Origin: Escherichia coli
GTDB taxonomy: Bacteria; Pseudomonadota; Gammaproteobacteria; Enterobacterales; Enterobacteriaceae
Reading direction: 5' to 3' (one strand)
NCBI RefSeq assembly: GCF_030013595.1
Contig: NZ_CP122768.1
DNA: 64,000 bases
Shown piece by piece: positions 48,001 through 51,000 of the stretch. A program made the position numbers. How positions within the stretch are numbered: the stretch's first letter is position 1; each line of letters begins with the position of its first letter.

Positions 48001-51000
48001 CGATTCGATCGATTTTATTCAATTGAGACTATCGCATGGCGGGTTTTAAAATGCACTGAGTACTGCTTGCAGCAACGGAGCAATAACGGAGATAATTGAA
48101 ATGAAAAAGGTTTTTGCTGTTTCAGTGGTGGCCGCAGCCTGTGTATTTGCAGCAAATGCAGGTGCTGAGGAAGGTAAAAGCGGTTTTTATCTGACCGGTA
48201 AAGCCGGTGCCTCTGTGGTGTCACTTTCAGACCAGCGTTTCCTGTCAGGAGATGAGGAAGAAACGTCAAAGTATAAAGGCGGCGATGACCATGATACGGT
48301 ATTCAGTGGCGGTATTGCGGCCGGTTATGATTTTTATCCGCAGTTCAGTATTCCGGTTCGTACAGAACTGGAGTTTTACGCGCGTGGAAAAGCTGATTCG
48401 AAGTATAACGTAGATAAAGACAGCTGGTCAGGTGGTTACTGGCGTGATGACCTGAAGAATGAAGTGTCAGTCAACACTCTGATGCTGAATACGTACTATG
48501 ACTTCCGGAACGACAGTGCATTCACACCATGGGTATCCGCAGGGATTGGTTACGCCAGAATTCATCAGAAAACAACTGGTATCAGTACTTGGGATTACGG
48601 GTACGGGTACAGTGGGCGTGAGTCGTTGTCACACTCAGACTCTGCTGACAACTTTGCATGGAGCCTTGGGGCTGGTGTCCGTTATGACGTAACCCCGGAT
48701 ATCGCTCTTGACCTCAGCTATCGCTATATTGATGCAGGTGACAGCAGTGTGAGTTACAAGGATGAGTGGGGCGATAAATATAAATCAGAGGTTGATGTTA
48801 AAAGTCATGACATCATGCTTGGTGTGACTTATAACTTCTGACGAAACTGCTCCTGAAAGATAATAATTACTTATCTTCTGTAATTAAAAGGAAACACCCT
48901 GCAGTAATTATACTGCAGGGTTGTCTGTTATCTGTTTTACAGATAATTTCTGATTTTTATTATCCTGTTCTCTTCATAATAATATTGTCGATATACTCCG
49001 ATGAATATCAGAAAACTGTTTTGTCCGGGCGACACACCCCGGATTTTATTGTTTTTATTCTTTTTTGTTATTTCTGTGATAATCACAATTGCATGCGGAT
49101 ACACTGAGAAGAATGCCACAGGAAATGTGCTGCTTCTGTTTCTCCTTCTTCTCCTTGCACACAGAAATACCCTCACATCCATTACAACGCTGTTATTTCT
49201 GTTCTGTTGTGCACTGTATGCGCCTGCGGGTATGACGTACGGTAAAATCAACAACAGTTTTATTGTCGCGTTGCTGCAGACCACGGCTGATGAGGCTGCA
49301 GAGTTTACCGGGATGATTCCTGTTTATCATTTTCTGGTCAGTGCCGCGATTCTGGTATTCATGGTGATTTTCTGGCGGACACACCACCGCGGTCACCGTA
49401 ACTGGCTGGCACTGCTGCTGTTCGTATTATGCTCTGTAAACAGCTGGCCGTTGCGGATGGTTAAAGGAATTGTTGTGGGAACAACTGACACATTGCGTGA
49501 AATGCAGCGTTATAAACAACTGAGTCAGCACGGGGCTGACAACTGGAAAATCCTGCCGGGAACACCGTTGTATGACTCGATTGTTATCGTTACTGGTGAG
49601 AGTGTGCGCAGGGATTATATGTCGGTATATGGCTATCCCGTGCCAACCACACCATGGCTGAATACGGCTCCCGGTTTATTTATTGACGGCTATACATCGG
49701 CAGCAGCCAGTACCGTACCTTCCCTGAGCCGGACACTGATTTATGACTATGAGCAGAACCCTGACTCCGGCAACAACGTGGTGGCGCTGGCAGCAAAAGC
49801 AGGATACAGCACATGGTGGATATCCAATCAGGGAAAACTGGGAGAGCATGACACACGCATCTCTGTTATTGCTTCTGATGCGGAGCATACCGTTTTCCTC
49901 AAGAAAGGCAGCTTCGCTTCCCGTAAAACGGATGACATGTTGTTGTTACAGGAAACAGAACGTGCGCTGGCGGATAAATCCTCGCCGAAGGTGATTTTCC
50001 TGCACATGATTGGCTCTCATCCGAATCCGTGTGACCGACTTAACTCCTGGCCGAATTATTACCTGGAGCAGTATCCCCGAAAGATTGCCTGTTACCTCGC
50101 CAGCATCAGTAAACTGGATAACTTTCTCGGTCAGCTTGATGGTATCCTTCGCCGGCATTCCCGTCACTTTGCAATGCTTTACTTTTCTGACCATGGGCTG
50201 TCGGTCAGCGACAGTGCTAATCCTGTTCATCATGATGGTCATGTGCAGGGGGGCTACAGCGTTCCCCTGATTATTACCGCCAGTGACATCACGTCTCATC
50301 AGTCCGTCAGCAGGAAAATCAGTGCCCGTAATTTCGCAGGCATTTTTCAGTGGCTGACCGGTATTCGTACCGAAAATATACCGCCATTCAATCCGCTGAC
50401 AGACGAAGATAATGAACCCGTTATGGTTTTTAACGGAGAGAAAAATGTGCCGGCAGACAGTCTGAAACCGCAGCCACTTATTCTTCCGGACCACAGGTAA
50501 TCATATATGGCAAACTGTAATACAGTCTCTTGTACTGAAAAGGATTCTGTATAGAATAGAACCTGTATTCATATCAGCACAAGGGACCACCAAATCCCGG
50601 CAGCATTCCTTACGTCAGTTATCCCGCATCACCCTGTGGGTGCGGGATTTTTTATGATGTTTCTTTTTATTGAATATATATAAATAACGAATAACTGCGG
50701 ATTCTGATAATCCACCTGCAGGGAGCAATCCGGTAAACATTTAATACATCAGTTAATATCGTTTTGCCTTTTTTAACAAAAAATAATCCCCGGGTGGTTC
50801 CCGGGCATTTTCCCGGGAGGATTATTGTTTTAATGGATTATTAATCTTTGCATATTCAAATGGACTGATAAATCTTTCTCTGTTTGCATCCAGAAAATCG
50901 GCCCACCACTGTAGCATAAGTCGACGTTCTTCCAGATGTTCGGCTTTATGGATATACGCAGCACGTACACCATTACGCTCCTGATGGCTCATCTGGCGTT

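What the first reader, a model, noticed from the sequence alone, without database searches (positions are those of the whole stretch)
48101..50500. Island-borne envelope cassette: Hek/Hra/Tia-like OMP adhesin next to a phosphoethanolamine-transferase-like enzyme
A small beta-barrel adhesin/invasin-type protein and an EptA/OpgE-like sulfatase-superfamily membrane enzyme sit side by side between the IS903 element and the integrase. Horizontally acquired phosphoethanolamine transferases can alter lipid A/LPS and affect cationic peptide or polymyxin susceptibility; the substrate here is unknown.
Basis: partly seen in the sequence, partly recalled or inferred. Interest (0 to 1): 0.4.

Follow-up and report, generated by a model that had tools for sequence, protein, structure and literature searches.

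The report
Known adhesin plus OpgE-like transferase cassette
This is a common, already annotated two-gene cargo block of E. coli tRNA-Phe islands: a heat-resistant-agglutinin-type surface adhesin next to an intact but never-tested phosphoethanolamine transferase that is related to the periplasmic-glucan enzyme OpgE, not to the colistin-resistance enzymes.

Summary
Both genes exist exactly as described. A 246-aa Hra-family outer-membrane barrel lies at 48101-48841 and a 499-aa phosphoethanolamine (PEtN) transferase at 49001-50500. They sit between IS903 and a P4-type integrase next to tRNA-Phe (pheV).

The block is ordinary. It is 100% identical to annotated DNA in other E. coli, and about 1,250 of 5,426 complete genomes hold at least 80% of it. 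Papers already mention it as "sulfatase ORF-tia" (SE-PAI), the hes region of LAA, and "putative opgE next to integrases".

The enzyme is the intact counterpart of the K-12 pseudogene yjgX (91% nucleotide identity). It has five membrane helices and a complete catalytic set (E200, T238, H340, D397, H398, H410).

In my tree it groups with OpgE (30% identity, full length) and far from EptA/EptB/MCR (18-21%). It meets no NCBIfam lipid-A cut-off. The polymyxin/lipid A idea is therefore not supported, and the acceptor remains unknown.

The adhesin-enzyme adjacency persists in Salmonella-type copies (51-58% identity) and survives replacement of the adhesin allele. It is absent from 75 loci in other species, and Hra adhesins work without the enzyme. 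An obligate functional link is unlikely. Interest is low.

The parts
46693..47749 (-). IS903 (IS5 family) element that forms the left border of the cassette in this window. Context, not part of the cassette.
   Evidence: 322-aa transposase ORF at 46749-47717. 33-nt terminal inverted repeats at 46693-46725 and 47717-47749. Annotated as IS903B in the identical locus L001.
47960..48052 (+). Upstream region of the adhesin gene, conserved across diverged copies. It contains a sigma-70-like site at 48023-48052 (TTGAGA-18-TAAAAT).
   Evidence: Promoter scan. 72-87% nucleotide identity to the regions upstream of tia in L020 and L019 and of the Salmonella-type copies L005 and L010. Function is inferred.
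48101..48841 (+). Hra-family outer-membrane adhesin gene of the Hra1/Hek/Hes subgroup: 246 aa, signal peptide, eight-stranded beta-barrel, C-terminal ...TYNF.
   Evidence: Pfam OMP_b-brl E 3.2e-22. 64-65% identity to Tia. Cluster names Hra1/Tia/Hek. AlphaFold model at pLDDT 88 with 8 long strands. Fold matches to NspA, OmpA, Ail and OmpX.
48896..48921 (+). Perfect 11-bp-stem hairpin 55 nt after the adhesin stop codon. Possible terminator or attenuator, with a weak T tail.
   Evidence: Terminator scan and the sequence itself.
48936..48963 (+). Sigma-70-like site (TTTACA-16-TATTAT) 38 nt upstream of the enzyme start codon.
   Evidence: Promoter scan, 10 of 12 matches. It is a consensus match only.
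49001..50500 (+). Intact YjgX-type phosphoethanolamine transferase gene: 499 aa, five N-terminal membrane helices and a periplasmic sulfatase-fold domain with catalytic E200, T238, H340, D397, H398, H410.
   Evidence: 91.4% nucleotide identity to the K-12 pseudogene yjgX over window 49314-50584. Sister to OpgE.
50621..50648 (+). Terminator-like hairpin with a T run, downstream of the enzyme gene and convergent with the integrase gene.
   Evidence: Terminator scan.
50822..52087 (-). P4-type tyrosine integrase of the island.
   Evidence: 421-aa ORF. Annotated as a tyrosine recombinase/integrase in identical DNA. 70-74% nucleotide identity to K-12 intB.
52285..52360 (-). tRNA-Phe (pheV), the integration site of the island.
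   Evidence: ARAGORN. Chromosomal yqgA and speC follow it.

Best explanation
The region is the integrase-proximal cargo cassette found in many E. coli islands that carry a P4-type integrase at pheV, pheU, selC or leuX. It holds two envelope genes that most likely act independently.

Gene 1 encodes a Hra-family adhesin of the Hra1/Hek/Hes subgroup. It is a Sec-exported, eight-stranded outer-membrane barrel. In characterised relatives the long surface loops mediate haemagglutination, autoaggregation and adherence.

Gene 2 encodes the intact form of the K-12 pseudogene yjgX. It is an inner-membrane enzyme with five transmembrane helices and a periplasmic alkaline-phosphatase/sulfatase-fold domain. 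By analogy with its family, it should take phosphoethanolamine from phosphatidylethanolamine onto Thr238 at a zinc site formed by E200, D397 and H398, with H340 and H410 assisting. It should then pass the group to a periplasmic or surface acceptor.

Shown here: the gene identities, the intact catalytic residues, the fold, purifying selection on the enzyme, and its place in the tree beside OpgE and away from the lipid A enzymes. Inferred: the chemistry, and that the acceptor is a glycan other than lipid A. That acceptor could be periplasmic glucan, LPS core or O-antigen sugar, or another surface structure. No polymyxin resistance is expected.
For: Gene calls and domains.

Prevalence: the cassette is 100% identical to annotated DNA in other strains. 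At least 80% of it is present in 1,253 of 5,426 complete genomes, and the enzyme gene alone in 1,450. The same block lies at pheU (L001; 99.7% over 5.7 kb), at selC (L020), and as a remnant at leuX in K-12.

Enzyme: catalytic residues are aligned and invariant in 46 relatives. There are five hydrophobic segments. The AlphaFold model has pLDDT 90.4, and its best PDB matches are E. coli EptC, full-length MCR-1 and full-length EptA. The tree puts the YjgX-like clade with OpgE in 100 of 100 bootstraps. BLASTP to OpgE gives 30% identity over residues 20-492, E 7e-77, against 22% over 244 residues, E 2e-9, for EptA. dN/dS is 0.17 between the window and selC copies.

Related experiments: OpgE-like enzymes of H. 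ducreyi do not modify lipid A but do alter surface charge (PMC4406763).

Independence of the two genes: there is a hairpin and a promoter-like site between them. hes alone confers adhesin phenotypes on the laboratory strain HB101 (PMC5539235). None of 75 loci from other species has a Hra-type gene within 4 kb of the enzyme gene.
Against: No experiment on this enzyme exists in the searched literature, so activity and acceptor are inferred.

Identity to OpgE is only 30%, a level at which acceptor specificity can differ. E. coli already has a core opgE, so a second glucan enzyme would seem redundant.

The tree used 21 sequences with neighbour joining. It lacks Lpt3, Lpt6, PetG/K/L, PptA, BcsG and a verified Opt.

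The adjacency with a Hra-type gene is kept in copies diverged to 51% (adhesin) and 56-58% (enzyme) identity. It also survives an adhesin allele swap. That could mean more than hitch-hiking.
Confidence: 0.65

Rival explanations
1. The two genes are functionally coupled. The transferase would decorate the adhesin itself, or the LPS or glycan immediately around it, with phosphoethanolamine. This would tune adhesion, autoaggregation or antigenicity of the short barrel adhesin.
For: The gene order adhesin then enzyme, on the same strand, is retained in Salmonella-type copies where the adhesin is 51% and the enzyme 56-58% identical. At selC the enzyme is 96% identical while the adhesin is a Tia allele at 65%, so the pairing outlives allele replacement. 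In H10407, tia sits near a PEtN transferase of a different, YhbX-like subfamily. Protein targets of PEtN transferases are known: pilin for PptA and FlgG for C. jejuni EptC (reviewed in PMC10525099).
Against: Hes and Hra1 confer haemagglutination, autoaggregation, biofilm and adherence when expressed alone in the laboratory strain HB101 (PMC5539235). That HB101 lacks a working yjgX, as in MG1655, is assumed, not checked. A hairpin and a promoter-like site separate the genes. No Hra-type gene lies within 4 kb of the enzyme gene in 75 loci from other species, next to the IncI1-plasmid copy, or next to the Erwinia and Enterobacter copies. Synonymous divergence of 0.11 for the enzyme against 1.24 for the adhesin shows different histories.
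Confidence: 0.15
2. It is a horizontally acquired lipid A (or Kdo) phosphoethanolamine transferase that lowers susceptibility to polymyxin and cationic peptides, like EptA, MCR or EptB.
For: It has the same overall architecture and catalytic residues as EptA and MCR. Some database entries label 52-58% relatives 'lipid A phosphoethanolamine transferase', an automatic name.
Against: It is 18-21% identical to EptA, EptB and MCR-4.2, and BLASTP to EptA aligns only part of the catalytic domain. NCBIfam scores are 37 bits against a cut-off of 660 (EptA), 50 against 493 (EptB) and at most 30 against 1075 or more (MCR). It sits in the OpgE clade with full bootstrap support. OpgE-like PtdA and PtdB of H. 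ducreyi leave lipid A unchanged. The gene is near-full-length in about 27% of complete E. coli genomes.
Confidence: 0.05
3. The enzyme gene is a functionless passenger on its way to decay, as in K-12. Only the adhesin matters.
For: K-12 carries a 5'-truncated pseudogene. About half of the 2,973 genomes with a match hold only partial copies. The K-12 yjgX deletion has no defensin phenotype (PMC4808223).
Against: The reading frame here is full length with every catalytic residue intact. dN/dS is 0.17 between island copies. A confident two-domain model was obtained. 1,450 genomes keep at least 80% of the gene.
Confidence: 0.1

Closest known systems
SE-PAI and related tRNA-Phe/selC islands: 'sulfatase ORF - tia' pair (Michelacci 2013, as cited in PMC7371111)
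   Same: The layout is the same: tRNA, integrase, enzyme, Hra-family gene. The enzyme next to tia in the selC island L020 is 96% identical to the window enzyme.
   Different: The adhesin allele there is Tia, 65% identical to the window protein. SE-PAI also carries shiA and subAB2, which are absent here.
LAA pathogenicity island, hes region (PMC5539235; PMC13340028)
   Same: It is a pheV island between yqgA and yghD with integrase, PEtN transferase and a Hra-family adhesin at the integrase end.
   Different: The window allele is not hes: the hes-specific primers do not match. LAA has sisA (a TPR protein) between the integrase and the enzyme. This window has none, and it carries Ag43 and a broken BREX system instead of LAA modules II-III.
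E. coli K-12 yjgX (b4575), pseudogene next to intB and leuX
   Same: 91.4% nucleotide identity over window 49314-50584, in the same position and orientation relative to a P4-type integrase and a tRNA.
   Different: The K-12 copy lacks the first ~313 nt and the adhesin gene and is annotated as a pseudogene. The window copy is intact.
OpgE (YbiP), PEtN transferase for osmoregulated periplasmic glucans (PMC3818809)
   Same: Closest characterised relative: 30% identity across both domains, E 7e-77, shared motifs GSHPxxCDR and YFSDHGL, and sister clade in 100 of 100 bootstraps.
   Different: It is a separate clade, shorter (499 against 527 aa), mobile rather than core, and its acceptor is untested.
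H. ducreyi PtdA/PtdB (PMC4406763)
   Same: They belong to the OpgE/YjgX superclade. The H. ducreyi locus L049 is 33% identical to the window enzyme and 31% to OpgE. They have no lipid A role and an unknown acceptor.
   Different: They are distant chromosomal genes in a species without periplasmic glucans.
EptA / MCR / EptB / EptC
   Same: Same superfamily, five-helix membrane domain, sulfatase fold, and Thr nucleophile with zinc ligands.
   Different: 18-22% identity, different clades, and all curated family cut-offs missed by a wide margin.

Membership tests
Hra family of outer-membrane adhesins (Hra1, Hra2, Tia, Hek, Hes) | Clear full-length sequence similarity to a prototype member (family members share about 65-90% identity) | tested here: met
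   64% identity over 248 residues, E 2e-110, to Tia of ETEC H10407. The 90% cluster carries the names Hra1, Tia and Hek. Identity ranges are from PMC5539235.
Hra family of outer-membrane adhesins (Hra1, Hra2, Tia, Hek, Hes) | Signal peptide plus small eight-stranded beta-barrel with long surface loops and a C-terminal aromatic residue | tested here: met
   AlphaFold model at pLDDT 88 with an N-terminal helix and 8 long strands. Fold matches to NspA, OmpA, Ail and OmpX. The sequence ends in ...TYNF.
Hra family of outer-membrane adhesins (Hra1, Hra2, Tia, Hek, Hes) | Haemagglutination, autoaggregation, or adherence/invasion phenotype | not testable with these tools
   Shown only for relatives (PMC5539235).
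Phosphoethanolamine transferases (YhjW/YjdB/YijP/YbiP = EptB/EptA/EptC/OpgE superfamily) | N-terminal domain of five transmembrane helices followed by a periplasmic sulfatase/alkaline-phosphatase-fold domain | tested here: met
   Five hydrophobic segments between residues 15 and 154. Pfam Sulfatase E 2.7e-36 and EptA_B_N E 2.4e-5. The model aligns over about 540 columns with full-length MCR-1 and EptA.
Phosphoethanolamine transferases (YhjW/YjdB/YijP/YbiP = EptB/EptA/EptC/OpgE superfamily) | Catalytic Thr nucleophile with Glu/Asp/His zinc ligands and two further conserved His | tested here: met
   E200, T238, H340, D397, H398 and H410 align with the corresponding residues of EptA, EptB, EptC, OpgE and MCR-4.2. 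E200, T238, H340, D397 and H398 are invariant in 46 relatives.
Phosphoethanolamine transferases (YhjW/YjdB/YijP/YbiP = EptB/EptA/EptC/OpgE superfamily) | Transfer of PEtN from phosphatidylethanolamine to an acceptor | not testable with these tools
   No experimental report on this protein was found.
Lipid A PEtN transferases (EptA / MCR) | Score above the curated NCBIfam cut-off of an EptA or MCR model | tested here: not met
   37.1 bits against 660 (EptA), 70.8 against 500 (generic lipid A model), at most 30 against 1075 or more (MCR families).
Lipid A PEtN transferases (EptA / MCR) | Falls in the EptA/MCR clade of a family tree | tested here: not met
   EptA, MCR-4.2 and EptB form their own clade (95-100 of 100 bootstraps). 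The window enzyme groups with OpgE (100 of 100).
Lipid A PEtN transferases (EptA / MCR) | Raises polymyxin MIC and adds PEtN to lipid A phosphate | not testable with these tools
   Needs lipid A mass spectrometry and MIC measurement.
OpgE (periplasmic-glucan PEtN transferase) | Orthology to E. coli OpgE | tested here: inconclusive
   It is the nearest characterised relative (30% identity, full length, E 7e-77). It forms a distinct sister clade and is mobile, whereas opgE is a core gene at ompX. It is therefore a paralogue, not an orthologue.
OpgE (periplasmic-glucan PEtN transferase) | PEtN substitution of osmoregulated periplasmic glucans | not testable with these tools
   Needs glucan analysis in an opgE mutant expressing this gene.
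YjgX (K-12 b4575) lineage | High nucleotide identity and the same position beside a P4-type integrase at a tRNA gene | tested here: met
   91.4% over 1,271 nt, with the same order tRNA, integrase, then enzyme on the opposite strand.

The most novel reading that the evidence does not exclude
The persistent pairing of a Hra-type adhesin gene with a PEtN transferase gene could reflect a functional unit. It holds across 51-58% divergence and across adhesin allele replacement, and in H10407 a transferase of another subfamily sits near tia. The enzyme would put phosphoethanolamine on the adhesin's surface loops or on neighbouring LPS or glycan, changing adhesion, autoaggregation or immune recognition. 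That would be an outer-membrane-protein or adhesin-linked target not yet described for this enzyme family in E. coli.
Probability: 0.12. Interest if true: 0.6.

Novelty: already known. Interest (0 to 1): 0.2.

Why it matters
For resistance surveillance, this gene should not be read as an mcr-like determinant. It belongs to the OpgE side of the family and is very common in E. coli.

The one open question of some value is what the intact YjgX-type enzyme modifies. It sits at the integrase end of many virulence islands. It was picked up as 'putative opgE' in a bloodstream-infection association study. It was also deleted unnoticed together with hes and sisA in a 2026 virulence study, so phenotypes assigned to the adhesin may partly belong to it.

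Tried and rejected
1. NCBIfam ranked CptA/EptC models highest (105 bits against a cut-off of 404), and the closest solved structure by sequence is EptC. I first considered an EptC-like heptose enzyme. Full-length comparison and the tree showed OpgE is clearly closer. No OpgE model appeared among the NCBIfam matches.

2. I considered the Shigella O-antigen enzyme Opt/Lpt-O. A small-plasmid PEtN transferase (pHFQ3, 480 aa) is only 21% identical and falls outside the clade. I could not verify that it is Opt.

3. I looked for functional work on the 52%-identical IncI1-plasmid copy and on yjgX. I found none. yjgX appears only as a neutral integration site or a false-positive control.

4. I tried to name the adhesin allele exactly. 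Reference Hra1, Hek and Hra2 sequences were not retrievable. I could only exclude Tia (64%) and hes (primer mismatch).

5. I searched the window for a direct repeat of the tRNA 3' end and for integrase remnants beside the adhesin gene. There were none.

6. The context look-up for the 65% E. coli relative P0041 failed because it is not on record.

7. dN/dS for the Salmonella-type copies could not be computed because synonymous sites are saturated.
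Full report
**Observation.** The window holds two same-strand ORFs exactly at the stated coordinates: 48101-48841 (246 aa) and 49001-50500 (499 aa). Pfam assigns the first to OMP_b-brl (E 3.2e-22). It assigns the second to Sulfatase (E 2.7e-36), with a weaker EptA_B_N match in the N-terminal part. To the left lies IS903, with terminal inverted repeats at 46693-46725 and 47717-47749. To the right lie a 421-aa tyrosine integrase (50822-52087, minus strand) and tRNA-Phe (52285-52360). yqgA and speC follow, so this is the pheV site of E. coli. The description is confirmed.

**How common it is.** The 2.9-kb block 47900-50800 is 100% identical to annotated chromosomal DNA of several E. 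coli strains, where the genes are called 'outer membrane protein' and 'phosphoethanolamine transferase'. At least 80% of the block is present in 1,253 of 5,426 complete genomes, and some part of it in 3,183. The enzyme gene alone is at least 80% covered in 1,450 genomes, and the adhesin allele group in 1,097.

The same 5.7 kb (IS903 through tRNA-Phe) recurs at 99.7% identity at pheU in strain 30COLEC. A 96%-identical enzyme lies next to tia at selC in another strain. In K-12 the pseudogene yjgX, next to intB and leuX, matches window 49314-50584 at 91.4% nucleotide identity. It lacks the 5' end and the adhesin gene. The window enzyme is thus the intact form of YjgX.

**What the literature says.** Several papers already describe the arrangement.
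- SE-PAI is given as tRNA-integrase-shiA-'sulfatase ORF'-tia-subAB2, and 'ORF-tia' is proposed as the ancestral pair of tRNA-Phe islands (PMC7371111).
- The LAA island carries hes near the integrase at pheV (PMC5539235).
- A bloodstream-infection association study reported 'putative opgE' genes next to integrases near pap (PMC8946752).
- A 2026 study deleted a 5.5-kb segment containing sisA, the PEtN transferase and hes, and discussed only hes and sisA (PMC13340028).

I found no experiment on the enzyme itself. The K-12 pseudogene deletion was a false positive in a defensin screen.

**The adhesin.** The protein is 64% identical to the prototype Tia of H10407 and 65% to a selC-island Tia. This is the distance reported between Tia and the Hra1/Hek/Hes group. 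Sources name its 90% cluster Hra1, Tia or Hek. The hes-specific primers do not match.

The AlphaFold model (pLDDT 88) shows a signal helix and eight long strands. Its fold matches are NspA, OmpA, Ail and OmpX. It is therefore a Hra-family barrel adhesin of the Hra1/Hek/Hes subgroup. I could not retrieve the reference sequences needed to name the allele exactly.

**The enzyme.** Five hydrophobic segments (residues 15-154) precede the sulfatase-fold domain. Alignment with K-12 EptA, EptB, EptC, OpgE, YhbX and MCR-4.2 shows the catalytic set intact: E200, T238, H340, D397, H398 and H410. All but H410 are invariant in 46 relatives. The model has pLDDT 90.4. Its best PDB matches are the E. coli EptC periplasmic domain and, over about 540 columns, full-length MCR-1 and N. 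meningitidis EptA.

On placement, no NCBIfam model is reached. CptA scores 105 bits against 404, EptA 37 against 660, EptB 50 against 493, and MCR families at most 30 against 1075 or more. A bootstrapped neighbour-joining tree gives a YjgX-like clade (100/100). It is sister to OpgE (100/100), then YhbX (92/100), and far from EptA/MCR-4/EptB and EptC. BLASTP to OpgE gives 30% identity across residues 20-492 (E 7e-77). BLASTP to EptA gives 22% over 244 residues (E 2e-9).

OpgE-like PtdA and PtdB of H. ducreyi leave lipid A unchanged yet affect surface charge, and that species has no periplasmic glucans (PMC4406763). The H. ducreyi homologue found here is equidistant from the window enzyme and OpgE. 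Acceptors in this superclade are therefore not limited to glucans, and the acceptor here stays open.

**Are the two genes a functional pair?**

*For a link.* Two Salmonella-type copies keep the order adhesin then enzyme, with the adhesin 51% and the enzyme 56-58% identical. At selC the enzyme is 96% identical while the adhesin is a different allele class. Synonymous divergence there is 0.11 for the enzyme and 1.24 for the adhesin, so the adhesin gene was exchanged by recombination while the neighbour stayed. In H10407, tia lies 5 kb from a YhbX-like PEtN transferase (27% identical to the window enzyme), with leoCBA in between.

*Against a link.* An 11-bp-stem hairpin and a promoter-like site lie between the genes. 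hes or hra1 alone gives full adhesin phenotypes in the laboratory strain HB101. I assume HB101 lacks a working yjgX, as MG1655 does, but did not check this. The 52%-identical IncI1-plasmid copy and the Erwinia and Enterobacter copies have no such neighbour. None of 75 loci from other species (23-55% identity, most 24-40%) has a Hra-family gene within 4 kb.

I conclude that the pair is a linked cargo block of one mobile lineage. Obligate coupling is unlikely but not excluded. The enzyme is under purifying selection (dN/dS 0.17), which argues against a dead passenger.

**Verdict.** The cassette is common, annotated and already noted in the literature. The hint at lipid A modification or polymyxin resistance is not supported. 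What remains unknown is the acceptor of a widespread OpgE-like transferase.

**Limits.** The tree is small and lacks several acceptor classes. Promoter and terminator calls are consensus matches only. All functional statements about the enzyme are inferred from homology.

Noticed in passing
window 39322-46725: A type 1 BREX defence system is broken here. brxL (39322-41406) and pglZ (41417-44020) are intact. The pglX ORF (44191-46689) matches only model positions 378-1205 and ends at the IS903 repeat, and brxA/B/C are absent. A 98.6%-identical island in strain NDM2 has full pglX-brxC-brxB-brxA, so IS903 is associated with loss of the 5' part of the system.
   Followed up: partly
window 45000-46000: G+C content drops to 34-35% inside pglX, against about 50% around it. 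This may be a swapped target-recognition segment of the methyltransferase.
   Followed up: no
L019 (ETEC H10407) 6448-13647: In the classical Tia island the gene order is tia-leoC-leoB-leoA-PEtN transferase. That transferase is YhbX-like (557 aa, 27% identical to the window enzyme). A related selC island (L020) has the YjgX-type enzyme directly after tia. Two transferase subfamilies thus occupy equivalent positions.
   Followed up: partly
L003 8001-9536 (IncI1-type plasmid contig); plasmid hits H27-H30: A 511-aa homologue, 52% identical, sits in conjugative IncI1-like plasmid backbones between nuc/DUF2569 and the pnd/excA/traY region. Its cluster has about 1,955 member sequences. I found no functional report.
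   Followed up: partly
L014 (K-12) 4451-6598: In K-12 the core opgE gene lies convergent to ompX, another small eight-stranded barrel. This resembles the barrel-plus-transferase adjacency seen here, but is probably coincidence.
   Followed up: no
window 47960-48052: The stretch upstream of the adhesin gene is conserved at 72-87% even with the Salmonella-type and Tia-type copies, although the coding regions are far more diverged. It is a candidate shared regulatory region.
   Followed up: partly
L018 (pO45/pO157-type plasmid) 1790-3511: Large EHEC-type plasmids carry a plasmid-borne cptA (EptC-like PEtN transferase) next to lpxM, a glycosyltransferase and a polysaccharide deacetylase. It is only 23-25% identical to the window enzyme and is unrelated to this cassette.
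   Followed up: no
PMC13340028, LAA region of STEC UC4224: The published 'delta hes-sisA' mutant removes a 5,485-bp segment that also contains the PEtN transferase gene and part of atoS. The virulence and biofilm phenotypes reported are therefore not attributable to hes and sisA alone.
   Followed up: no
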